This document shows, piece after piece, positions 4,524-37,008 of a stretch of DNA of 64,000 nucleotides (the first letter of the stretch is position 1; the number at the start of each line of letters is the position of its first letter). A program made the translations under genes and the position numbers. The stretch lies in IMG/VR virus record IMGVR_UViG_3300021339_000007, positions 16-64,015 of that record. One strand, given 5' to 3'. The notes beneath the pieces are model-generated. The model searched no databases and was not told where the DNA came from. It saw nothing but the letters and a program-made list of their open reading frames with translations. Source of the stretch: a virus. Lineage: Duplodnaviria > Caudoviricetes.

Positions 4524-5273
4524 CTAAACTCCGTCGCTGGCCAGGATCTCCGCCCGGCGCGGATTGATCGGACAGCTCTCGGCCGTGATCGGCTTCGCAG
4601 GCTCGAACGTCACACCGTCCACCTCGAATGTATCACCGGCGACTACCGGCGGCAATTCCGCGTCCATGGCTTTAAGGTTCTCAAGAACCTCACGCGCCCG
4701 CTCGGTGGTGATCGTGACGTGGAAGCCCTCTTGAGGCTGCGGATCAGGCCCGGCGTTCCCGGAGCCGAAGAAGCCGTCCATCGGCAGAACGCCCTGCCCC
4801 TTCTCCATCGATGCGGCCATCAGCTTGATATCTCGCTGCCAGTAGCCATGCCGTTCGACAATGCAGCGGAACTCCTCAAGATCGTGACCGATCAGGTGCA
4901 GCACGACGTTGCCGTCATTGTCGTAGCGGGACCCGCAGTGCATCAGCTCATGATCCAGCAGCGCGCGGCGTTCGTGGGCTTCCATGTGACACCAGATCGG
5001 CTCTGAGATCACGATTGCGAAGAAGGGCTTAACCTTCTCTTCCTCCTCCTCGCGCCCGAAGAACGCCGCCAGGGAGGTCACCTTCTGTGCGGTGGCGGCC
5101 ACGGTCTTTCCGAGGCGTTTCTTCGTGTCGGAGCGGAACAGGAATTCAACGCGCACGTTGTGCTCATTGAGGTGTTTATGGAACTCGCCGATAATCGGCA
5201 GTGCCAACGCTTCCGCAGCCGGTGCCGGGGTAAACGTCGTAGGGGGTTTCTTCGGCTTCCTCACTCGTGGCAT
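4524..5273 (-). CDS. Putative phage metallopeptidase
   Basis: ALLDHELMH (HExxH) plus HDLEEF..IVERHG. Confidence 0.8.
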   Translation of the reverse strand: MPRVRKPKKPPTTFTPAPAAEALALPIIGEFHKHLNEHNVRVEFLFRSDTKKRLGKTVAATAQKVTSLAAFFGREEEEEKVKPFFAIVISEPIWCHMEAHERRALLDHELMHCGSRYDNDGNVVLHLIGHDLEEFRCIVERHGYWQRDIKLMAASMEKGQGVLPMDGFFGSGNAGPDPQPQEGFHVTITTERAREVLENLKAMDAELPPVVAGDTFEVDGVTFEPAKPITAESCPINPRRAEILASDGV

Positions 5274-10615: not shown

Positions 10616-11506
10616 ATGGGCGCAAAATATGCAGTCATACGGTATCTACCTGATCCGGTTGCCGGTGAATGTATCAACGTCGGAGTGATAGTAGTAGGAC
10701 AGGGCAAAACGCTGATCCGATTTCTTACGGACTGGACGCGCGTACAATGCTTCACTAACAAGGATCTCCAGTTCCTTAAAGATCTCGAAGCTCGACTGCA
10801 TAATGATGCGCAAATCAGCGAGCACCTCCCGGATTTGGCAAGCGGCTCCCGATTGGACGAAGAAAAATTGGCTCGCATGGCTCGGTGCTGGCATCACTCG
10901 ATTCAAGCGAGCCCCTTGGCAGGGTCTACTTTGGGACCGGAAGACCTGATGGAGCAGATCGCTCAGCGTTTCCTTAAGCAGGCGATCGTTAGGCGCGCTG
11001 TAGAGGAAAACCGAAACAGAACGTTCGCTACGAACCTGATTGAAGCACCCGTGATACTAGCGTTGACGGAGCTCCTAGGTCCCGAGGCTCCGAAGCAACT
11101 GTTGGACAAGTCACCGGTTATTCGCGGCAGGGATTTCAGCGATAATACATTAGGGTTTGCTGTTCAGCAGAAGGGAAATATCTATCTCGGCGGTGAGGGA
11201 ATATCGTTCTCCATCAAAACCCACAACCATGCACTTCAGAACCTGAAGGCTGTGAAATATGCCGTCAGCGATATTAAGAAGCTGCGTCCCATGTTACCGA
11301 TCGGAATAGTGATGCTCGGCCCTGAGATATCTCACTTTCCCAATCGGGAAGCTTTCATCAAACTCAACAGACAATATGAAGCCGGTATTGAGGAGCTGAA
11401 ACAAAGAGGCGCTGTAATCCTTTCGGAGTCTAACGCGAAGGATTGGGCGATGTCTTCCGTTACGAGGTACGTTCCGGCCTCGTTGGTCTTAGACGATTCT
11501 GAGTAG
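10616..11506 (+). CDS. DUF3037-domain protein
   Basis: YAVIRYLPDPVAGECINVGVIV N-terminus. Confidence 0.8.
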   Translation: MGAKYAVIRYLPDPVAGECINVGVIVVGQGKTLIRFLTDWTRVQCFTNKDLQFLKDLEARLHNDAQISEHLPDLASGSRLDEEKLARMARCWHHSIQASPLAGSTLGPEDLMEQIAQRFLKQAIVRRAVEENRNRTFATNLIEAPVILALTELLGPEAPKQLLDKSPVIRGRDFSDNTLGFAVQQKGNIYLGGEGISFSIKTHNHALQNLKAVKYAVSDIKKLRPMLPIGIVMLGPEISHFPNREAFIKLNRQYEAGIEELKQRGAVILSESNAKDWAMSSVTRYVPASLVLDDSE

Positions 11507-19382: not shown

Positions 19383-19455
19383 TGCGGGGTGGGGCAGTTG
19401 GTAGCCCGCCTGGCTCATAACCAGGAGGTCGCCGGTTCGAGTCCGGCCTCCGCTA
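19383..19455 (+). tRNA. tRNA-Met(CAT), initiator (fMet)-type, CCA not encoded
   Basis: Full cloverleaf; CTCATAA loop; 1:72 mismatch; G11:C24; TTCGAGT T-loop. Confidence 0.9.
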
Positions 19456-28877: not shown

Positions 28878-29753
28878 GTGACAAACTATTCCGATTGGGG
28901 CGGTCCCGGCTCCGTCATCCTGAAGAAGACGCTCGGAAGCGGGCCCTTCACCTTGAACTCGCAGGTGACGATCCCCTCCGCGATCGTGCAGCCCTTCAAG
29001 CCGCTGAACACGACTTATCTGCAGGCGATCAATGCGGCGCAGGGAACCTCGCTGTCCGTGGCTGGCAACCAGACCCCGGCGATCGCGCTCCGAACCTATT
29101 ACAAGCCCACGTGGGGGACCGCGGCGCTGCTGAAATCGCTCATCCAGTTCCGTGACACGACCACTTTCTATACAGACCAGTTTGCGATGCAGGTCAAATC
29201 GCAGTATCGAACGCGGAAGTTCTCGAAGGGGCGATGTACGGGCCTTACGATCACGCATACCAAGCAGGGCAACCAGCCGGGGCCGATCATCGTCGATATG
29301 GGCTTCGTGTTCATCTATGGCGATCTAGGCGGCGCGCCCGACGATCCTTCGCCTCCGACGTTTTCGGCTGCAGCGACCGATGCGGGTCAGGCGACGAATG
29401 CGGGGCAGGTCGCGTGGGCCACGGCTACGCAGGTAAAGAGCTTCCAGCTGCAGATGAACTGCGTCCAGGAATATCAGTTCTCGGATAACAACACGCTCTT
29501 TGCTGACGATATCGCAACCGGACCTCCGGACGGCGGGCTCGCGCTCGTGCAGTCAGACAGCTACACCGCAGCGCCGACCACAACGGACACGCTGAGCCTC
29601 GGCGGGGTAGGCGCGGGAATAGCTATCGCTCTCAACTTGGACCTGCACACGCCGTTCACGCCGCAAGACGGCGGTTTTATCAAATACAACAGCGCGTTCA
29701 AACTTGCCAACTTGACCACCGGCGGAATTCCGTGGGACATCACGGCACTCTAA
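28878..29753 (+). CDS. Major tail tube protein
   Basis: 291 aa, beta-rich; directly before the frameshifted chaperone. Confidence 0.7.
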   Translation: MTNYSDWGGPGSVILKKTLGSGPFTLNSQVTIPSAIVQPFKPLNTTYLQAINAAQGTSLSVAGNQTPAIALRTYYKPTWGTAALLKSLIQFRDTTTFYTDQFAMQVKSQYRTRKFSKGRCTGLTITHTKQGNQPGPIIVDMGFVFIYGDLGGAPDDPSPPTFSAAATDAGQATNAGQVAWATATQVKSFQLQMNCVQEYQFSDNNTLFADDIATGPPDGGLALVQSDSYTAAPTTTDTLSLGGVGAGIAIALNLDLHTPFTPQDGGFIKYNSAFKLANLTTGGIPWDITAL

Positions 29754-29762
29754 GGAGAAGAC

Positions 29763-30299
29763 TTGAAGCAGGCGAAGATTTTTATTATCAATAATGGCGA
29801 AGACCCATACGCGCTCCTAGATTCCGACGCCAACTTCTATGCCGTTGCTGACTGGGAGCTAAAGACGATCAAGAAACCCCCGGAGGAATTGGAGAAGGAC
29901 ACGAACGGAAAGGGTCGATGGCTGACCCTGGAACTCAAACCGGCAAAGTCGGGGCTTGACCGCGAAGCGAAACAGCGGTGCCTGGTTGGGGATGCACTGA
30001 CAGGGTTCAGGAATGACACTCTGCTGTTGCCCGGCAACCAGTTCGAATTGTTCGTTTCGAGTTGGCGGTGGGCAGACCGCGACGGCGACGACCCTCCGAA
30101 GCTGAAGGCCCCAACCGTTGATGTATTCGAATCCTTACATCCGAACGTAGCGGATAGGATCAGAATGACGCTGGATTGGCACATCCGGCCTAACATCTCG
30201 GTAGACGCTGATTTTTTTTCCGGATTGAGCGATCTGTCCACGCAGTCCTTGGAATCGAACCCTGCCAAATCCGAGCCGACGACCTCCACCCCGGAGTAA
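29763..30299 (+). CDS. Tail assembly chaperone (gpG-like)
   Basis: Position; T8 slippery run at 30212-30219. Confidence 0.7.
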   Translation: MKQAKIFIINNGEDPYALLDSDANFYAVADWELKTIKKPPEELEKDTNGKGRWLTLELKPAKSGLDREAKQRCLVGDALTGFRNDTLLLPGNQFELFVSSWRWADRDGDDPPKLKAPTVDVFESLHPNVADRIRMTLDWHIRPNISVDADFFSGLSDLSTQSLESNPAKSEPTTSTPE

Positions 30300-30511
30300 G
30301 GCTGTTCCTGGAAGAGCGGGCCGGAATGCCGCCGTTCTACCGTTCTAGGGAAAACATGGACGTGGAGACGCACGAGGTTTACCTGCATTGCCGGGGCATG
30401 GAGTTAGAGGCGCAGCAGGCAGACTCACCTCAGGAACCGGCACAGGGCGAAGTCCCAGCGCCGGACTTGTTCGACCTGGAGGCATATGGGCCGATGAACG
30501 TCGGGCTTTAA
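30212..30511 (+). CDS. -1 frameshift extension (gpGT-like)
   Basis: The -1 frame is open from the T run (FRIERSVHAV...) into MPPFYRS... and ends at TAA 30511. Confidence 0.7.
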   Translation, partial: FFFRIERSVHAVLGIEPCQIRADDLHPGVRLFLEERAGMPPFYRSRENMDVETHEVYLHCRGMELEAQQADSPQEPAQGEVPAPDLFDLEAYGPMNVGL

Positions 30512-30555
30512 ACGCCTTTGCCCGTGGGAGGAAAGCGTTACCGGGGTAACAGTTT

Positions 30556-30846
30556 TTAGCCTTCCCAGACAAGCGGACGCCAATCGGGAGGAATGATACC
30601 ATCTCGAATAGCGTTCGAGATCATGCCTCTATGCCGAAAATCAGCGCGGAGAACATGACAGCGGCGGCATAAAGTTCGCAAGTTTGATAGTTTGTTCGTC
30701 GCATTCTTGCCTGATTGGATGTGGTCAATGTGGCAAGTGTCGATTTCTAAGGGCGTCTGACAGCGGACGCACTTTCGCCCGTCGCGCTGCCAGACTTTAA
30801 CTCGAATAGCGTCCCATATTTCTTTCGGAGGTCGTTTTTTAGGCAC
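30556..30846 (-). CDS. HNH endonuclease directly downstream of pentamer array 1
   Basis: RDGRKCVRC..HIDHI..N..SNLRTLCRRCH; probable GTG start at 30846. Confidence 0.88.
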   Translation of the reverse strand: MPKKRPPKEIWDAIRVKVWQRDGRKCVRCQTPLEIDTCHIDHIQSGKNATNKLSNLRTLCRRCHVLRADFRHRGMISNAIRDGIIPPDWRPLVWEG

Positions 30847-30847
30847 T

Positions 30848-30950
30848 CTTTCAAACCCTTGTCTCGCCTTGCCTAACCCGTACACGCCAAGGCCCGCCGT
30901 AACTCGCCACGCCGGACCGTGTCAAGCCGGACCCGGTAGTACCCTAGCCC
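30848..30950 (-). ncRNA. Pentamer array 1 (GGY/GNY + NN), putative guide RNA
   Basis: gg|gct ag|ggt ac|tac cg|ggt cc|ggc tt|gac ac|ggt cc|ggc gt|ggc ga|gtt ac|ggc gg|gcc tt|ggc gt|gta cg|ggt ta|ggc aa|ggc ga|gac aa|ggg tt|tgaaag. Confidence 0.8.
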
Positions 30951-30957
30951 AATTGAG

Positions 30958-31563
30958 CTAGGATTCTGGAAGGATGTCAAACGATTCGACCGTGAAGCGG
31001 CCAAACCCTACCGACCGACCATCGGCCAAGCCGACAAGTCTGCCGGCATCGATCAATACAGTTTCCATCTGAGTTCTATTGACGACCGTCTTATCAAACA
31101 GCATATGGAATGTAGTTTCCCAACCGGGAGCGGCCGCGATCCGATAGCGAACGTTTCGGCCTTTCGTTGCGGGGTTCTTTACACTACAAATGTGCATGTA
31201 AACCGACTGGCTTGCCTCGGTCGGGATTGGTTCAGGCGGTACGACCAAGGGTTTGCCGTCGCGAGTAAACAGGATACGCTCATCATCGATCTGGAGCGTA
31301 GCAGCGACAGCGGTCTGAATGGAACCGCGTCCCGACTTGGTGTATTTCGCTGCATCACGACACATGCCGAAAATGTAAGTCGGATGCACAAACAACTGCC
31401 TTTCTGCGGTCATAAGGACCGTCTTTTTCCATTCTTCGGGGTCGTTACCCGCAACGCCGGTTCGCTCTTGCTTTTCGAGCGGAATCGCGTCGGGGCCGAA
31501 CTGGTGCCAGAGAATAGACCGAGTACCTTTGATTCTGACGCTTGCCTTGATGACGTTTGCCAT
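30958..31563 (-). CDS. Stand-alone Cas7/RAMP-like protein
   Basis: N-terminal strand VRIKGTRSIL; P..IFGM helix; C-terminal Gly-rich loop GLADGRSVGFGRFTV typical of RAMPs. Confidence 0.7.
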   Translation of the reverse strand: MANVIKASVRIKGTRSILWHQFGPDAIPLEKQERTGVAGNDPEEWKKTVLMTAERQLFVHPTYIFGMCRDAAKYTKSGRGSIQTAVAATLQIDDERILFTRDGKPLVVPPEPIPTEASQSVYMHICSVKNPATKGRNVRYRIAAAPGWETTFHMLFDKTVVNRTQMETVLIDAGRLVGLADGRSVGFGRFTVESFDILPES

Positions 31564-31610
31564 GAGAATCTTTCTGCCTGCCTACAATGCCGACAGGCGG
31601 GCGGTTTCGA

Positions 31611-31916
31611 CTAGATCAGTAATCCTGCGGCGCGGCAAGCATTGATAGCCTGCACCCTGTTGCAAACAGCGAGCTTCTTGTAAGCGTTCGATATGTGATA
31701 ATCGACCGTCCTTTTGCAAACGTATAGCTGATCGGCAATTTCCTTGTTGCTCAATCCAGTAGCGACAGCAGTAAGAACGACGACCTCTTGACGGGTAAGA
31801 GGCAAACCAGTCTCATCTTTTACTGATGGAACGTGAGGCTTACGGGCATTGGTCGGGCGGGCCTGAAGCCCCGCGAGTGACGTACAGTTCTCGAAGCGTG
31901 TAGCGATATTATTCAT
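31611..31916 (-). CDS. LuxR/GerE-type HTH regulator
   Basis: LTRQE..GLSNKEIADQLYVCKRTVDYHISNAYKKL.V.NR. Confidence 0.9.
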   Translation of the reverse strand: MNNIATRFENCTSLAGLQARPTNARKPHVPSVKDETGLPLTRQEVVVLTAVATGLSNKEIADQLYVCKRTVDYHISNAYKKLAVCNRVQAINACRAAGLLI

Positions 31917-32187
31917 TGGTGTCTCTTTCCGGCCGACCATCGACCAACCGTATACTGTGGATTAGGTCCGCCATTTTTTCAGCGCAATAGGCATCGATTA
32001 CCGCAACAAGGGCGGCATAACTAGCGTCTACGGCAGCATCCGCCAACCGGACGCGCAACGCCTGCTCATCTTGATAGTTGCGAGTCCTCATCCTTGCGCG
32101 CCGTACCTCGCAGTTGATATGCTCTCCTGCGGCGGTCTGAAATGTCGGGGACTCGCTGATCGATGTGCAGTACTTGTTATCCGGCAT
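31909..32187 (-). CDS. Hypothetical protein
   Basis: AAGGA RBS; overlaps the LuxR gene start. Confidence 0.55.
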   Translation of the reverse strand: MPDNKYCTSISESPTFQTAAGEHINCEVRRARMRTRNYQDEQALRVRLADAAVDASYAALVAVIDAYCAEKMADLIHSIRLVDGRPERDTNE

Positions 32188-32204
32188 TGTCCTTACCCTT
32201 CCTA

Positions 32205-32558
32205 TCAGGCAGCAAGGGTAAGGACAAAGGACCGACCTCGATAGGTCGGCTCTATCGTGCACGAGCAGCGGCAATCGCTGGACTCGCAGAAATCGCAGAA
32301 GTCTTCGGGCGAGGTTTCCGGCCTGCGGGCCATGTGTTCTGCGATTGCCCGTTCCTGGCGCTCGATCTGGTTCGTACGCGCTTCGCGGAGTTCGGCATTC
32401 GCAGGATCACATTCGCTGAAGCGATCCTTGAGGATTTGAAGGTAGCTCTGCATCGATTGCAGGTTCTCTGCCCAGGTGGCGGGCTGGACGGTGCCGCGAT
32501 GGTGGCCGCGATAATCGCGGGATCGAACACGGGCAGAAAGTGTGGTTGCGGTTGGCAT
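32205..32558 (-). CDS. Hypothetical protein with C-terminal Cys cluster
   Basis: AAGGAG RBS; CDFC..C.C.C. Confidence 0.6.
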   Translation of the reverse strand: MPTATTLSARVRSRDYRGHHRGTVQPATWAENLQSMQSYLQILKDRFSECDPANAELREARTNQIERQERAIAEHMARRPETSPEDFCDFCESSDCRCSCTIEPTYRGRSFVLTLAA

Positions 32559-32661
32559 TTCGTTGGTCTCCTTTGCGGTAAAGGGTAAACTGAAAGCGTC
32601 CCTTTGCGGGATGCCGGGAGGTGGTCTCAACACCGACCGGCTTATTTAGTTTACTGTGTAT

Positions 32662-32690
32662 ATTATACACCTATATTGTGTATACGTCAA
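32662..32690 (-). promoter_or_regulatory. Sigma70 promoter driving the Cas7-like/HNH operon
   Basis: TTGACG-N17-TATAAT. Confidence 0.8.
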
Positions 32691-32748
32691 GCCCGAATCC
32701 GGTGTTTTCAACATTTATTTTTGTGTATTTGTGCTGTATACTATCAGC

Positions 32749-32937
32749 ATGGAGAACACTGAACAGTCTGCACGCAAACGAGGCCCGGTGCCGGGGCCAA
32801 AAACAGAACGTTATCAGGTTCTTTTAGACCCAGACGCAGCCGATTGGGGAAAGCGGCAACCGGGCGGCCTTTCAGAACTGCTTCGTAAGCTTTTGAGCGA
32901 TGCGTACGAAAAAGCGAATTCTAGTCCATCGGGCTAG
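32749..32937 (+). CDS. Small ribbon-helix-helix-like regulator
   Basis: RGPVPGPKTERYQVLLD..GLSELLRKLL; TATACT just upstream suggests a leaderless transcript. Confidence 0.65.
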   Translation: MENTEQSARKRGPVPGPKTERYQVLLDPDAADWGKRQPGGLSELLRKLLSDAYEKANSSPSG

Positions 32938-33027
32938 AATGAACGGGCCATGGTGAGCCAAGGTTAGGTCTGGTCCGGCGGGGTCTGGCTTGGCGCGGCG
33001 GGGCAAGACAAGACAAGGGTTTGAAAG
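32931..33027 (+). ncRNA. Pentamer array 2 (GGY/GNY + NN), putative guide RNA
   Basis: g|ggc ta|gaa tg|aac gg|gcc at|ggt ga|gcc aa|ggt ta|ggt ct|ggt cc|ggc gg|ggt ct|ggc tt|ggc gc|ggc gg|ggc aa|gac aa|gac aa|ggg tt|tgaaag; same ends as array 1. Confidence 0.8.
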
Positions 33028-33089
33028 CAGGAATTGAATAGGTGCAGAGTCGAATAGCGCGTCAACTCGGTTGCATTAGAGAAGACGCG

Positions 33090-33278
33090 ATGAACACACT
33101 ACTTTGGGTTGTCGTAGGATTGTTGATATCCGCAGGTGGTATAGGCCTACTCTTCGCCGTACTGCTCGCTATGAACACTAACGAATCGGGCGCGGTAGTT
33201 GCATTCATTATCGGTGCGGCCGGCGTGGTGTCGTTGTTCACAGGTTTAATCGGAGCATTTATACTGCACCGGAAGTGA
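33090..33278 (+). CDS. Small two-TM membrane protein
   Basis: Two hydrophobic segments. Confidence 0.6.
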   Translation: MNTLLWVVVGLLISAGGIGLLFAVLLAMNTNESGAVVAFIIGAAGVVSLFTGLIGAFILHRK

Positions 33279-33305
33279 AGCGGTTTATCAGGTTCACAAG
33301 GAACA

Positions 33306-33336
33306 GGAGCGATCTCAATTAGAGATCGCTCCTTCT
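33306..33336 (+). terminator. Hairpin, probable terminator
   Basis: GGAGCGATCTC-AATTA-GAGATCGCTCC. Confidence 0.55.
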
Positions 33337-33522
33337 AGTTTGGCGGTGAAGCTTGCGCAAACGAGTTGAAGTTGAATTAGACATAAGCGAAGCTGCCCAT
33401 CGGCTTCAGACACTTATCTGCTCTTCCTGATCCTGCTTAGAAAATAACAGTGCGCGATAATTTGCAGGCTGCCACCCCGTCCGAGATTAGGGCGGGTTTT
33501 TTGTTGCCTGCTCGGAACAATC

Positions 33523-36500
33523 ATGGCTCGTAAAGTCGTTCAGGTAGATTTAGACATATCGGCTGCAGTTGCGAAGGTGCAAGAACTTGCAGCGCAACTC
33601 GACAAGCTGCGAACGGAGTCTAACATCTCGATCGGGGCACAGGGCTTGCCTGGAAACGGCTTAATGGGCACGTTTTCAAGCTCATCCGGTCCCGGCATCA
33701 ATCCGGCCACGACCGGCGGCGTCACCATGTCCGGTGGCAGCGCGTCGGTCTCCGTACCTGGAAACGTCGCAGCAGGGCCGCCATCTCTGGGGGTCTTCGG
33801 ATCGGGATTCGGAACCGGGCAAATGAACATGGTTTCCGGCACGGTTGCGGGCACACCTGCTAACGGCCGGGTTCCGTCGGATAGCGAATACGATTTCAGT
33901 GTGTCGTCTGGGTCCGCGCCGGATCAGCCTGGTTGGGCGGACGGCGAACAGTTCGCATATGTGAGAGGGCACTTTCGGCGTCACCCGCGCACGGGCAGAG
34001 CAGGTGGAGCAGGAGCACCTCCACCTCCATCGGCTACCGTATTTACCGAAGCCAGTGCGCCTTCTGATGATGACATGGGCGCACCCCCCATGCCGGTCCC
34101 TCCAACCGGCGGGGCAGGTGGGGGTGCTGCTCGTCGGCGTCGGCGCGCACGCGGTAACAATAACCGAGACGATGATGATTTCAACTTCGAGGACTACATC
34201 GGCTTTCGTACGGCCCGAGAGTTGGCACGTGGTGCGTCAGACGTTGCGAACGAATATACACGGTACACGATTTCGGGAGAACCCAATCCGCTAGCCCTGG
34301 GACAGAGCGCAGGTCTTCTAGGGGGAGGACTCTTTGCAACCGGACTGATTGCAGGCGGGATGGGGCTAGGGCCAGCGGGCATGATCGGTGCGATAGCGGC
34401 CCCGCTTATTGGCGCGGGCGTTAACGCATTTCAGGCCCCCGCCATTCAGCGACAGAACATTGCGGCATCCTTTTCTGTTTATGGTGCAGCTTCAGGGCAA
34501 GATCCCAATGGCTTAGCGTCCGGCGCGGCTCAGATCGCCTCGCAGCAGAATTCAATGTTCTATGCGCAAGGCTATGCGCAGAACGTTGCGACCGGTAACC
34601 CGGTGCGCGACTTTATCGGCGGCGCCTGGGCGACAGCGGATAACTACCTGCGTCGATGGGGAATGCACGTTGGTACCGACCAGATCAGCGCGCAGGACGT
34701 TGCTGCAATAGAACAGGCGGTTGGTTCGGCTGCATCCTCTGTTGGAGAGACGTTGACGCCTGAACAGTTGAGAAGTGCTTCTCAGCGATACGTGAGCATG
34801 GGCGGCCCAACTGGCAAGCCACTGTCTCAGGCTTCTTCTGCGGCAGTGTCGCGGTTGGGAGAGAGCGGCGGTAACCTGTTTTCGCTCTCATTGCGGGTTG
34901 GGGCGGATGCTACAAAGCTCGCAGCGAATATGCTTGGAATGCCCTTCGACGTCGAACAGGGTCGAAAAGATGCATGGGATTATCAAATAGGACAATCCCA
35001 TATCGCAGGCGCGGAAGCGATCGCATCCGGTCTTGGATCAGAATACGAACGCTCCGCCTTCAGCGGTAAGACCACGTTTGCACGCCGGCCAGAATTCGAT
35101 CGGATGCAGGCGGCACTGAGGGCTGATTATGACCTGACGGCCAGCGAGTATAACCGAATGCAGTCCGGCCCGCAGCGTGACAGTGTAGAAGCGAAGGGGC
35201 TATTCGCGCGTGGGCAGCAAGACCTTCTCCAGATAGATCGAAACCAAGCGCAACGATCCGAAGGGATTGTTGGAGACATCAGCGCAGCAGGGCGGGCAAA
35301 CCTTGCGGCGGCGAACTATCAGACGAGTATGGCAAACCTCTTCGGGGGTGAGGCGGACTTGAGGCGGGCCGGGGCTTCCACATTCGCAACGCTCATGGAT
35401 ACGGCGAATCGCTTAGAGGCCACAATCGGACTGCCGGGACAAACCGCGCAGCAGATGTACGATCAGCGCGCACTGGTCTCCGCAACCAGAGGCCAAGCTT
35501 TGCAACAGCGCACGCAACTGGTAGATGCGGGGCAACAACGGCGCTTCTTGTCTCAGGACGTGAATGTCAGCGTCTTCGCGGCGGACCTTACCGCTTCTGA
35601 GATGTTCGGAACCGATTCGCAGTTGGGTGCTACATTTGCGGCGGCGGTTGGAAGTCAAGATTTTATCGCAAACGATGCGTTCACTGCAAGCCAAAACCAG
35701 AGTGCCTCAGTTGAGCAAAAGGCACGGGACCAAGTTCGGAGTGCGAATGCCAGACAGCAAAGCCTGAATCTTCGGGCGCGGAGTCTGGACGTATTGCTCT
35801 CTCGGATTGGTGGCCGTGCTTCCATAGCCGAAAGTGACGCGTCCAACGTGCTGCTCGGGGCGGCCTACGGCGACGCCGGGGATGTAGAGCGAGCGGGCGC
35901 AGGCTTCATTGGAGCATTAGGTTCGGAAAGAGCGTCCCTTCAGGATCAGCTTCGCCAAGGCGGATTGACGGTTGAGCAGGACATTCGGCTGCGAAGCCGG
36001 GTTTCCTCGATTGAAGGGCAACAGATACGCGCGCAAATCGACGTAAGGGACACTGTGCTTGGCAGAGTAGAGACCACTGCCAACCTTGCGAACCAAGCAG
36101 CCTCCAACGAACTTAATCGCTCACTACGCCTTGGCACGGGAAGTGACGTTCGGAGCGCATCGGGCGGAATGCTTTCCTCCCTTGGCAATGAGTATTCCAG
36201 GCTGCAGGAGCAAATCGACCGAGGCGGATTGACCTTCGATCAAAGAAGCCGCGTACAGGAGCGGCAGCAGAGCATCGGTCGTTCGGTCTTCGACATTGGT
36301 CAAAACGCCATTGATGAATCAATCAGGCGCGATGATATGTCAGGCTTCGGCTTGGCGTCGATAGAGAACAGCGCCGCACGAAGGATAGCCTCTTTGATGC
36401 CCTACGGCTCAGGCGGCAGATTGAGTGCAGATGTTCGAACCATCCGTACTAATCAACAGCAACTCGGCGTCCTTCAACAACGGGAAGAGCAGTTGCGCCG

Positions 36501-36999
36501 AAGTGGAAACTTGTCTCCTGAGCGGCTGTCTTCCATCCGGGAGCAAGAGGCAAACCTTGGCGTGGAAATCGCGTCCGGCATTGCCGGCTTGACGGAAAAT
36601 GTGGCCGACTACCTTCCGGGTCTTTCTGCAGGCCGTGGCGCGAACTACTCTATGTACGACAGTCTCCAGCTTGCGGCGCTACGTGTCAATCGAACCGGCT
36701 CCAATATCCGGTCCTTCGGAGCGATCAACGGCGCCCAGGCGGCCCGGCAAGCGCATGCGTGGGACCAATTGTCCGGAGGCATGATCTCCGGCGGCCCTCA
36801 TTCGCTGACTCAGGGAATCAACCAGGGCCGCGGGACAGGCGCCATGGAGATCCTTCTGACGCAGATCCGCGATACGCTGCAACGCATCGGCAGCGGCAAT
36901 ACCGGCTCTACGCAAAGAATCGGCGAATCTGCCGGACAGGCGGCGGGGCAGATCAGTCAGCGCGATGTTGGATACGGATACGGCGGGCGCAAGCTCTAA
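33523..36999 (+). CDS. Tape measure protein
   Basis: 1158 aa, Ala/Gly/Gln-rich with helical repeats (GGLT.EQ); longest gene, at the tape-measure position. Confidence 0.75.
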   Translation: MARKVVQVDLDISAAVAKVQELAAQLDKLRTESNISIGAQGLPGNGLMGTFSSSSGPGINPATTGGVTMSGGSASVSVPGNVAAGPPSLGVFGSGFGTGQMNMVSGTVAGTPANGRVPSDSEYDFSVSSGSAPDQPGWADGEQFAYVRGHFRRHPRTGRAGGAGAPPPPSATVFTEASAPSDDDMGAPPMPVPPTGGAGGGAARRRRRARGNNNRDDDDFNFEDYIGFRTARELARGASDVANEYTRYTISGEPNPLALGQSAGLLGGGLFATGLIAGGMGLGPAGMIGAIAAPLIGAGVNAFQAPAIQRQNIAASFSVYGAASGQDPNGLASGAAQIASQQNSMFYAQGYAQNVATGNPVRDFIGGAWATADNYLRRWGMHVGTDQISAQDVAAIEQAVGSAASSVGETLTPEQLRSASQRYVSMGGPTGKPLSQASSAAVSRLGESGGNLFSLSLRVGADATKLAANMLGMPFDVEQGRKDAWDYQIGQSHIAGAEAIASGLGSEYERSAFSGKTTFARRPEFDRMQAALRADYDLTASEYNRMQSGPQRDSVEAKGLFARGQQDLLQIDRNQAQRSEGIVGDISAAGRANLAAANYQTSMANLFGGEADLRRAGASTFATLMDTANRLEATIGLPGQTAQQMYDQRALVSATRGQALQQRTQLVDAGQQRRFLSQDVNVSVFAADLTASEMFGTDSQLGATFAAAVGSQDFIANDAFTASQNQSASVEQKARDQVRSANARQQSLNLRARSLDVLLSRIGGRASIAESDASNVLLGAAYGDAGDVERAGAGFIGALGSERASLQDQLRQGGLTVEQDIRLRSRVSSIEGQQIRAQIDVRDTVLGRVETTANLANQAASNELNRSLRLGTGSDVRSASGGMLSSLGNEYSRLQEQIDRGGLTFDQRSRVQERQQSIGRSVFDIGQNAIDESIRRDDMSGFGLASIENSAARRIASLMPYGSGGRLSADVRTIRTNQQQLGVLQQREEQLRRSGNLSPERLSSIREQEANLGVEIASGIAGLTENVADYLPGLSAGRGANYSMYDSLQLAALRVNRTGSNIRSFGAINGAQAARQAHAWDQLSGGMISGGPHSLTQGINQGRGTGAMEILLTQIRDTLQRIGSGNTGSTQRIGESAGQAAGQISQRDVGYGYGGRKL

Positions 37000-37008
37000 G
37001 GCGGGGAA

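What the first reader, a model, noticed from the sequence alone, without database searches (positions are those of the whole stretch)
32931..33027. Array 2 dinucleotides decode to a diverged tape-measure segment
The NN string AT GA AA TA CT CC GG CT TT GC GG decodes to I/M-D/E-N/K-Y-L-P-G-L-F/L-A-G. The tape measure gene at 36601-36633 reads GTG GCC GAC TAC CTT CCG GGT CTT TCT GCA GGC (VADYLPGLSAG). From TA to GG, 15 of 16 bases match in the same codon-1-2 register, and the three preceding units each match one base. This is an independent second case of the same gapped code, again in an essential tail gene.
Basis: partly seen in the sequence, partly recalled or inferred. Interest (0 to 1): 0.92.

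Follow-up and report, generated by a model that had tools for sequence, protein, structure and literature searches.

The report
Phage VIPR guide aimed at tape-measure gene

Summary
Observation confirmed. Array 2 (32950-33004, +) is 11 NNGGY pentamers. Its NN string matches the putative tape-measure gene at 36601-36633 in codon positions 1-2: 15/16 over the last 8 units and 18/22 overall. Only 15 of 4000 unit-order permutations do as well anywhere in the window.

The gapped code is the published VIPR 1-nt-skip rule (bioRxiv 10.64898/2026.04.26.720920). The neighbouring 201-aa protein matches the SUSP1 Vipr structure 36pp (E 1.7e-4), and its model resembles Cas7/Csm3.

All four known homologues of the target protein read GMEN(Y/R)LP(G/A)LS(A/S)G at this site. 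The guide decodes to (G)-M-E-N-Y-L-P-G-L-(F/L)-A-G, while the phage's own copy reads NVADYLPGLSAG. Relatives therefore fit better (up to 20/22, or 22/24 with a twelfth unit) than self (18/22, or 18/24); 0 of 2000 permutations do as well.

Array 1 behaves the same way against the 291-aa tail gene: relatives 22-24/26 (four of five), self 19/26.

Most likely the cassette silences or cuts rival sister phages, and the phage's own genes escape through changes at paired bases.

This is a new member of a known kind. The scan found VIPR loci before on other DNA. Relatives' DNA could not be fetched, so their scores are bounds from protein sequences.

The parts
32918..32940 (+). 5' hairpin just before vrRNA2: 10-bp stem, 3-nt loop. 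It overlaps the stop codon of the upstream small gene.
   Evidence: MFE -12.8 kcal/mol, z -2.4. The equivalent hairpin before array 1 has different closing pairs.
32945..33004 (+). vrRNA2 repeat tract (the guide). It has 11 NNGGY units from 32950, plus a possible twelfth degenerate unit, GG-GCC, at 32945-32949.
   Evidence: The twelfth unit decodes to G, which 4 of 4 relatives carry and the phage's own gene does not.
33005..33027 (+). vrRNA2 3' tail. It ends in the 16-mer GACAAGGGTTTGAAAG, which is shared with array 1.
   Evidence: No significant fold was predicted.
36598..36633 (+). Near-target site in the phage's own putative tape-measure gene (codons 1026-1037, NVADYLPGLSAG), in NNx register with the guide.
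   Evidence: 18/22 with 11 units, 18/24 with 12 units.
33523..36999 (+). 1158-aa ORF, the putative tape-measure protein. It is assigned by position and size only.
   Evidence: No Pfam or PHROG hit. Four homologues found.
30958..31563 (-). vipr gene: a 201-aa Cas7-like RAMP with the G-loop GLADGRSVGFGRF.
   Evidence: PDB 36pp_D, SUSP1 Vipr protein, E 1.7e-4. (phrog_4652). (model resembles Csm3/Cas7). (1834 relatives).
30941..30964 (-). 5' hairpin before vrRNA1.
   Evidence: MFE -15.8 kcal/mol, z -3.4.
30866..30935 (-). vrRNA1 repeat tract. Units 1-13 (30866-30930) form the guide, and a further unit lies at 30931-30935.
30848..30865 (-). vrRNA1 3' tail (GAGACAAGGGTTTGAAAG). It lies over the likely ribosome-binding region of the HNH gene.
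30556..30846 (-). HNH endonuclease gene, the likely accessory (vap) gene.
   Evidence: PF01844, E 1.4e-8.. Adjacent to vipr in 4 of 4 relatives.
29652..29690 (+). Near-target site of vrRNA1 in the phage's own 291-aa tail gene (codons 259-271, PFTPQDGGFIKYN).
   Evidence: 19/26.
28878..29753 (+). 291-aa structural gene to the left of the cassette, a putative tail tube protein assigned by position.
   Evidence: No family hit. Five homologues found.
31611..31940 (-). LuxR/GerE-type HTH gene inside the cassette. It is not conserved in relatives.
   Evidence: PF00196, E 4e-18..
32650..32690 (.). Divergent sigma-70-like promoter pair that could drive both arms of the cassette.
   Evidence: 11/12 and 9/12 consensus matches. 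Consensus match only.

Best explanation
Array 2 is a guide RNA (vrRNA) of a VIPR system carried by this soil phage.

The published mechanism, shown for other members, runs as follows. Copies of the small Cas7-like Vipr protein bind one GGY triplet each and hold it away from pairing. The NN pairs between them are presented to DNA and pair with two target bases, skip one, pair with two, and so on. Because of this spacing, the guide reads codon positions 1-2 of a gene.

In this phage, the 11-12 NN pairs of array 2 spell codons 1026/1027-1037 of the putative tape-measure gene as related phages write it (GMENYLPGL-AG). The phage's own copy has changed at the paired bases of the 5'-side codons (NVAD instead of GMEN).

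Array 1, made from the other arm of the same cassette, does the same for the 291-aa tail gene on the other side.

Most likely (inferred) the complex binds, and with the conserved HNH nuclease perhaps cuts, these tail genes in co-infecting or superinfecting sister phages. The phage's own genes are spared by their mismatches.
For: Protein.
- The 201-aa protein matches PDB 36pp_D 'SUSP1 Vipr protein' at E 1.7e-4 over residues 94-194, including the G-loop.
- Its AlphaFold model (pLDDT 63.7, pTM 0.65) finds Csm3/Cas7 chains at E about 1e-7, with 129 chains at E <= 0.001.

RNA.
- The two arrays have 11-14 NNGGY units with different NN strings.
- They share an identical 16-nt tail and equivalent 5' hairpins.
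- This fits the published 9-16 YNNGG repeats plus an invariable tail.

Code.
- Only the 1-nt skip gives a significant match in the window: 1/500 permutations, against 449/500 and 454/500 for skips of 0 and 2.
- The match lies in codon 1-2 register on the coding strand.

Target.
- In each of the 4 homologues (P0002-P0005), the best-fitting site in the whole protein is the homologous one.
- The largest possible NN identity there is 19-20/22, against 18/22 for the phage's own gene.
- 0 of 2000 permuted guides reach 20, and the highest permuted score was 18.
- M-E-N is shared by both clades of relatives (63-65% and 41% identical), so the phage's V-A-D is the derived state.
- Each of the three changed codons differs at exactly one paired base.
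- The changes sit beside a stretch of 28 residues that is identical to P0002.
- With the twelfth unit, self falls to 18/24 and the relatives rise to 21-22/24.

Array 1.
- Four of five relatives score a maximum of 23-24/26 (minimum 22-23); the fifth, P0011, scores 16/26. Self scores 19/26.
- The guide agrees with relatives exactly where the own gene differs (T, V, R against G, I, K).
- 0 of 2000 permutations do as well.

Accessory gene. vipr and HNH are adjacent in 4 of 4 relatives.

Both matches end exactly at the last GGY unit before the tail.
Against: - No DNA of any relative could be read.
- No perfect target is known. All relatives have S where the guide needs F or L, and the exact and loosened guide patterns found 0 matches in IMG/VR.
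- Relatives of the target genes were absent from the viral, metagenome and genome collections, apart from one distant locus without the site.
- There are no RNA data, so expression and the ends of the vrRNA are not shown.
- The phage's own site scores 18/22 = 82%. This is above the 80% threshold at which the authors found no self hits, and the 8 units nearest the tail, where R-loops start, match 15/16. Self-binding is therefore not excluded.
- In two relatives' records, guides show at most one weak near-self match (17/22, 10/300 permutations), so the self/sister pattern is not general.
- No pseudoknot or significant fold was predicted for the tail.
- The 'tape measure' assignment is by position only.
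Confidence: 0.8

Rival explanations
1. Self-regulation. vrRNA2 binds the phage's own tape-measure gene, and vrRNA1 binds its own tail gene. This would hold late tail genes down, for example in the lysogen or early in infection. On this reading the partial match is the functional one.
For: The phage's own site scores 18/22 = 82%, above the authors' 80% cut-off. The 8 units nearest the tail match 15/16, and R-loop formation proceeds from the 3' end. The cassette has its own sigma-70-like promoters, and its leftward arm (vipr, array 1, HNH) reads against the structural genes.
Against: Relatives fit better than self for both guides. The phage's own differences fall on paired bases and look derived. 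With the twelfth unit, self is 75%, and guide 1 against self is 73%. The authors report no self hits at >=80% in their sets and lower self scores as a means of avoiding autoimmunity.
Confidence: 0.1
2. RNA-guided homing or allele exclusion. The cassette aims its two guides at the alleles of its two flanking genes in cassette-less relatives. The HNH nuclease cuts there, and repair from the cassette-bearing genome copies the cassette and the protective polymorphisms across. This would work like free-standing phage homing endonucleases, but with an RNA guide.
For: Both near-target sites lie in the genes on either side of the cassette: 29652-29690 to the left and 36598-36633 to the right of 30556-33278. 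HNH is conserved next to vipr in 4 of 4 relatives. The phage's own alleles carry clustered changes at the sites. None of the best 120 of 1834 Vipr relatives sits on a contig of the length (9336 bp) that carries both a sister tail gene and a sister tape-measure gene; this is weak evidence.
Against: Cutting by any VIPR-HNH pair is only predicted in the text I read. The sister contig could not be read, so absence of the cassette there is unknown; 9336 bp is long enough to hold it. Guides of two relatives do not point at their own neighbouring genes.
Confidence: 0.2
3. The true target is a phage satellite or other parasite that carries copies of the helper's tail tube and tape-measure genes, as in the SUSP1 system, rather than a full sister phage.
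For: SUSP1 satellites encode a tape-measure protein and a baseplate protein, and they are the main natural VIPR targets. The homologues P0002, P0003, P0007 and P0008 are known only from short contigs of 2.4-9.3 kb.
Against: No satellite features could be examined. P0004 and P0005 lie on 43-53 kb contigs, which is phage-sized.
Confidence: 0.12
4. Coincidence. The NN string matches the tape-measure gene by chance in a GC-rich window.
For: The in-window p of about 0.004 is not overwhelming once that is allowed for. No exact target was found in any collection.
Against: The second guide shows the same behaviour (0/2000). Only the published 1-nt skip works. The match stops at the last repeat unit.
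Confidence: 0.02

Closest known systems
VIPR systems, type II (Escherichia phage SUSP1; Pseudomonas fulva prophage): Vipr protein plus vrRNAs (bioRxiv 10.64898/2026.04.26.720920 and 10.64898/2026.04.26.720927)
   Same: A small Cas7-like Vipr protein (E 1.7e-4 to the solved SUSP1 Vipr). Guide RNAs made of GGY/NN pentamers with a constant 3' tail. The 1-nt-skip code aligned to codon wobble positions. Carried by a phage. Natural targets in competing mobile elements. Self scores lower than non-self.
   Different: The accessory gene is an HNH nuclease, not the DNA-binding vap1. The tail differs and has no predicted pseudoknot. A 10-bp hairpin precedes each repeat tract. The two guides sit on opposite strands in a divergent operon within the tail-gene block. 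The targets are structural tail genes of close relatives. One guide scores 82% against self (11 units).
Nuclease-associated VIPR types (III-V, as described in the same preprint)
   Same: An HNH-type accessory gene. The preprint's legend for fig. S21 lists HNH domains among Vap proteins of types II, III and VII, and the text says types III-V encode nucleases or helicases. The guides target viral sequences.
   Different: Types III and V are described as enriched in cellular defence islands, whereas this one sits inside a phage's tail module. I could not place it on the authors' tree: the supplements are closed and the type tables were not seen. The type is therefore an inference from the accessory gene alone.
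Class 1 CRISPR backbone (Cas7/Csm3 filament on crRNA)
   Same: RAMP fold, G-loop and thumb. One protomer binds per repeat of the guide, and bases are periodically excluded from pairing. Best fold matches are Csm3 chains.
   Different: There is no CRISPR array, no spacers between repeats and no other cas genes. The period is 5 nt on the guide against 3 on the target, rather than 6 against 6.
Free-standing phage homing endonucleases (for example the T4 seg and mob genes; recalled, not looked up here)
   Same: A nuclease gene inserted between conserved genes. The likely targets lie in the neighbouring genes of relatives. The phage's own alleles are protected by sequence differences.
   Different: Here recognition would be RNA-guided through Vipr. 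Cutting is not shown.
TRAP-binding sites in Bacillus trp leaders: 11 (G/U)AG triplets with 2-3 nt spacers (recalled)
   Same: A 5-nt period: a conserved triplet plus a variable pair, about 11 units.
   Different: The triplet is GGY, not GAG or UAG. The partner protein is a RAMP, not TRAP. The variable pairs carry information. I considered this early and dropped it.

Membership tests
VIPR system | Vipr protein: a small single-RRM RAMP with a glycine-rich loop and a thumb | tested here: met
   phmmer against PDB finds 36pp_D 'SUSP1 Vipr protein', E 1.7e-4, residues 94-194 aligned with 91-189 including G-D-x-R...FGRF-VE. The AlphaFold model (pLDDT 63.7) finds Csm3/Cas7 chains at E about 1e-7. H20, R136/139/141, D181 and R183 are invariant in 5 relatives; their equivalence to the published contact residues is my inference.
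VIPR system | vrRNA: 9-16 tandem YNNGG repeats with conserved GGY and hypervariable NN | tested here: met
   Array 2 has 11-12 units and array 1 has 13-14 units. GGY is kept in 10 of 11 units (array 2), and the NN strings differ between arrays.
VIPR system | An invariable, structured 3' tail after the repeats | tested here: inconclusive
   The last 16 nt are identical in both arrays. However, RNAfold finds no significant structure (z +1.3 and -0.8), and the tails of relatives differ.
VIPR system | Targets follow the 1-nt-skip rule, with skip bases on codon wobble positions | tested here: met
   Only skip 1 is significant in the window. Both matches are in codon 1-2 register. Relatives' homologous sites are the best sites in their proteins, with 0/2000 permutations as good.
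VIPR system | An adjacent accessory (vap) gene with a DNA-related function | tested here: met
   An HNH gene (PF01844, E 1.4e-8) lies next to vipr here and in 4 of 4 relatives.
VIPR system | No self-target at >=80% NN identity (as reported for the authors' sets) | tested here: inconclusive
   Self scores 18/22 = 82% with 11 units and 18/24 = 75% with the degenerate twelfth unit. Guide 1 against self scores 19/26 = 73%.
VIPR system | vrRNA is transcribed at about 100 nt and co-purifies with Vipr | not testable with these tools
   All five runs listed for this DNA (kind dna asked) are on record as DNA.
VIPR type III (nuclease-associated) | Placement in the authors' Vipr phylogeny and their vap gene clusters | not tested
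Only the HNH association is known.
TRAP-regulated leader | (G/U)AG triplets bound by the TRAP (MtrB) ring | tested here: not met
   The triplets are GGC or GGT. The adjacent protein is a RAMP.
Any Rfam family | A match to a curated covariance model | tested here: not met
   The only match at gathering score in the window is a tRNA at 19383-19455. Nothing relevant appears in 30700-33200 at E <= 10.

The most novel reading that the evidence does not exclude
The cassette may be an RNA-guided homing or allele-exclusion element. Its two guides address the alleles of the two genes that flank it in cassette-less sister phages. The conserved HNH nuclease would cut there, and recombinational repair would spread the cassette together with the protective substitutions seen in this phage's own tail genes. 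That would join RNA-guided recognition to the lifestyle of free-standing homing endonucleases.
Probability: 0.2. Interest if true: 0.8.

Novelty: new member of a known kind. Interest (0 to 1): 0.5.

Why it matters
VIPR was described only in 2026 preprints, and natural targets are known for few clades.

This phage gives a clean natural example. Both guides of one cassette point at structural tail genes as close relatives write them. The phage's own copies of those genes, which lie on either side of the cassette, differ at the paired bases. That is a readable footprint of self/non-self discrimination achieved by target-site divergence.

It also gives a test case near the published 80% threshold: self at 82% or 75%, depending on one degenerate unit.

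The strict pairing of vipr with an HNH nuclease inside a phage, rather than in a cellular defence island, raises the open question of whether some phage VIPRs cut rather than silence, and whether they spread by homing.

Tried and rejected
Early ideas, dropped.
- A TRAP-like ring-protein binding site. The triplet is wrong, and the partner protein turned out to be a RAMP.
- A G-quadruplex array, an Rho-loading site, transposon ends (the arrays are inverted and 2 kb apart) and a DGR template/variable repeat pair (period 5, not 3). All were superseded once the Vipr match and the preprints were found.

Rfam gave nothing. blastn of 30500-33500 against 50,697 phage records found no match.

The 16-nt tail as an exact pattern in IMG/VR gave 24 stretches. 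None of the 24 has a pentamer array upstream, so all are chance or unrelated.

My caller found 358 arrays in the loci held (output cut, only part read). Most look like vrRNA tracts. L126 and L131 are plain (GGTAT)n, and L133 is a 10-nt repeat.

Array 1 scored with all 17 units and free sub-stretches was not significant in the window (102/1000 for the 13-unit stretch). With the guide limited to units 1-13 it was 9/500.

Searches for relatives' DNA that found nothing:
- Tape-measure C-terminus in IMG/VR.
- Alignment A2 in IMG/VR.
- A2 in metagenome contigs: one distant locus, L150, 28% identical, with the site reading GLEDRFPARRAN.
- A3 and A2 in genome contigs.
- The four Vipr relatives' own records.
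- Exact and loosened guide patterns in IMG/VR.

Laying contigs of 4 runs on 28878-37000 showed only identical fragments of this same phage and a few unrelated short pieces. No sister variants appeared, and parts without cover are not evidence.

Guides of two relatives' records (G002, G003) were scanned against their own genomes. Three of 4 arrays gave nothing, and one gave 17/22 with 10/300 permutations as good.

The tail fold was not significant.

Full report
**What is there.** Window 32950-33004 (+) is a run of 11 pentamers of the form NN-GGY (one unit has GCC). The five-unit pattern (GGYNN x4 + GGY), with up to one mismatch, occurs 11 times in the window against 0.33 expected. All matches fall in two places: this array, and a second one on the minus strand at about 30851-30935. 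Aligned in their own orientation, the two arrays share three features:
- the GG positions, but not the NN pairs;
- an identical last 16 nt (GACAAGGGTTTGAAAG);
- a 10-bp hairpin just upstream, with different closing pairs.

The window is an IMG/VR virus record of 64 kb, estimated 71% complete. Large terminase, portal, major head and adaptor genes lie upstream.

**Checking the arithmetic and the odds.** Window 36601-36633 reads GTG GCC GAC TAC CTT CCG GGT CTT TCT GCA GGC, in frame with the 1158-aa ORF 33523-36999. Against codon positions 1-2, the guide matches 15/16 over its last 8 units and 18/22 overall.
- I shuffled the order of the 11 units and scanned both strands of the window. 15 of 4000 shuffles reach 15/16 in any 8-unit stretch, and 19 of 4000 reach 18/22 (0 of 400).
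- Skips of 0 or 2 bases give nothing (449/500 and 454/500 shuffles do as well). A skip of 1 gives 1/500.

**What it is.** Rfam has nothing here, and known phage records have no similar DNA. The gene just upstream of array 1 (30958-31563, minus strand, 201 aa) ends in a glycine-rich loop.
- It has relatives in four IMG/VR contigs, each with an HNH gene next to it, and GGY-NN arrays follow nearby in at least three of them, L146-L148.
- A note search of this scan and a literature search both led to the 2026 preprints on VIPR systems.
- In the text I read, Vipr is a small Cas7-like RAMP that polymerises on a vrRNA made of 9-16 GGY/NN repeats plus a constant tail. The GGY bases are held by the protein. 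The NN bases pair with DNA while every third target base is skipped, and in natural targets the skipped base falls on codon wobble positions. R-loops grow from the tail end towards the 5' end.
- The 201-aa protein matches the solved 'SUSP1 Vipr protein' (PDB 36pp_D) at E 1.7e-4 across the G-loop region.
- A moderate-confidence model (pLDDT 63.7, pTM 0.65) finds Csm3/Cas7 chains at E about 1e-7.
- The family has 1834 members at E <= 0.001 and no Pfam domain.

**Is the tape-measure match real, and what is the target?** The large protein database holds four homologues of the 1158-aa protein: P0002 and P0003 (65% and 63% identical over the C-terminal part) and P0004 and P0005 (41%).
- At the site they read GMENYLPALSSG, GMENYLPALSAG and GMENRLPGLSAG (twice). 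This phage reads NVADYLPGLSAG.
- The guide decodes to (I/M)(D/E)(N/K)-Y-L-P-G-L-(F/L)-A-G.
- The three 5' units that fit the phage's own gene at only one base each are therefore exactly M-E-N, which is what all 4 of 4 relatives carry.
- The degenerate unit just before them (GG-GCC, 32945-32949) decodes to the G that all four relatives have and this phage lacks.
- Scoring each relative by the best and worst synonymous codons, the best site in the whole protein is the homologous one in 4 of 4. The maxima are 19-20/22 (minima 15-17), against 18/22 for self. 0 of 2000 shuffled guides reach 20 in these four proteins; the highest shuffled score was 18.
- With 12 units, self is 18/24 and the relatives reach 21-22/24 at most.
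- M-E-N is shared by both clades of relatives, so the phage's V-A-D is the derived state. Each of its three codons differs from the guide at exactly one paired base. The changes sit next to 28 residues that are identical to P0002.

**The second guide behaves the same way.** Units 1-13 of array 1 decode to P-(F/L)-T-P-V-(D/E)-T-G-(F/L)-V-R-Y-(N/K).
- The phage's own 291-aa gene (codons 259-271, 29652-29690) reads PFTPQDGGFIKYN, which scores 19/26 (9/500 shuffles do as well in the window).
- Three relatives of 81-86% identity read PF(T/S)PQDTGFVRYN. They agree with the guide exactly where this phage differs (T, V, R against G, I, K). Their maxima are 23-24/26 (minima 22-23). P0010 (55% identical) reaches 23/26, and the most distant relative, P0011 (53%), only 16/26.
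- 0 of 2000 shuffles do as well.

One relative's tail gene (P0009) and tape-measure homologue (P0003) are both reported on a longest contig of 9336 bp, so they probably come from one sister phage. Both matches end at the last GGY unit before the tail.

**How it most likely works.**
- Shown for other members (read): Vipr plus vrRNA binds double-stranded DNA by the gapped code and represses transcription, and natural guides aim at competing phages, prophages and satellites.
- Shown here: the parts are present, and both guides fit relatives' alleles better than the phage's own.
- Inferred: the cassette is expressed from its own divergent sigma-70-like promoters at 32650-32690 (consensus match only) and acts on tail genes of related phages that enter the same cell, while the phage's own genes escape through mismatches.

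Whether the conserved HNH protein cuts the bound DNA is open. The preprint only predicts target destruction for nuclease-linked types.

**What speaks against, or remains open.**
Relatives' scores are therefore bounds.
- No perfect target is known: all relatives have S where the guide needs F or L.
- There are no RNA data.
- Self at 82% (11 units) exceeds the 80% threshold at which the authors saw no self hits, and the tail-proximal block is 15/16. Some self-binding cannot be excluded.
- In two relatives' records, three of four guides show no near-self match, and one shows a weak one.
- The tail has no predicted structure.
- 'Tape measure' and 'tail tube' are assignments by position and size. 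Neither protein has a Pfam or PHROG match.

**Comparison and novelty.** This is a member of the VIPR family by protein, RNA architecture, code and accessory gene (see Membership tests). It differs from the studied type II systems in four ways:
- its HNH partner;
- its 5' hairpins;
- its unstructured tail;
- its divergent two-arm layout inside the tail-gene block.

By its accessory gene it resembles the nuclease-linked types, but I could not place it on the authors' tree because the supplements are closed. This scan has already reported VIPR loci on other DNA, including HNH-linked ones and one where guides spell sister-phage versions of neighbouring genes. It is therefore a new member of a known kind.

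The boldest reading not excluded is RNA-guided homing or allele exclusion.

**Verdict.** Interest is moderate (0.5): it is a clear natural-target example with a self/non-self footprint, not a new principle.

Noticed in passing
window 32918-32940 (+) and 30941-30964 (-): Each vrRNA repeat tract is preceded by a 10-bp hairpin (CUAG..GGGCUAG core). The outer pairs differ between the two copies (compensatory). Each hairpin overlaps the stop codon of the upstream gene. It could be a 5' cap or a processing signal.
   Followed up: partly
window 30846-30865 (-): The shared vrRNA tail of array 1 ends 2 nt before the likely GTG start of the HNH gene and contains its only Shine-Dalgarno-like AAGGG. Vipr loading could therefore affect HNH translation.
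   Followed up: no
Some phages carry 0.7-1.1 kb of back-to-back arrays of 9-13 units, often each ending in GGCAA GGCAG. L126 and L131 are plain (GGTAT)n repeats.
   Followed up: partly
window 36580-36720 (protein alignment A2, columns about 1170-1230): The phage's own tape-measure protein differs from P0002 at 6 of 7 residues (LTENVAD against LSEGMEN) immediately before a stretch of 28 identical residues. This is a local burst of change at the 5' side of the guide footprint.
   Followed up: partly
window 28878-37000, runs X2-X5: Fragments identical to this phage (0 other letters) occur in soil-metagenome contigs from two studies other than the likely source, dated 2018 and 2025. The phage is therefore widespread and stable in sequence.
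   Followed up: partly
G003 (record of L148) 11240-11294 (+) against 5141-5173 (-): One guide of a complete related phage has a 17/22 near-self match about 6 kb away (10 of 300 shuffles do as well). The other three guides examined in G002 and G003 have none.
   Followed up: no
window 33305-33333 and 33476-33496: Two terminator-like hairpins lie between the 78-aa membrane-protein gene and the start of the 1158-aa ORF. The cassette is thus insulated from the downstream tail genes.
   Followed up: no
window 32749-32937 (+): The small gene upstream of array 2 (62 aa from its internal ATG) looks like a ribbon-helix-helix DNA-binding protein by eye. It has only a weak DUF2239 match (E 0.0012, below the cut-off) and is not conserved in the four relatives.
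   Followed up: partly
window 19383-19455 (+): A tRNA gene (Rfam RF00005, 64.5 bits) lies just upstream of the large terminase gene.
   Followed up: no
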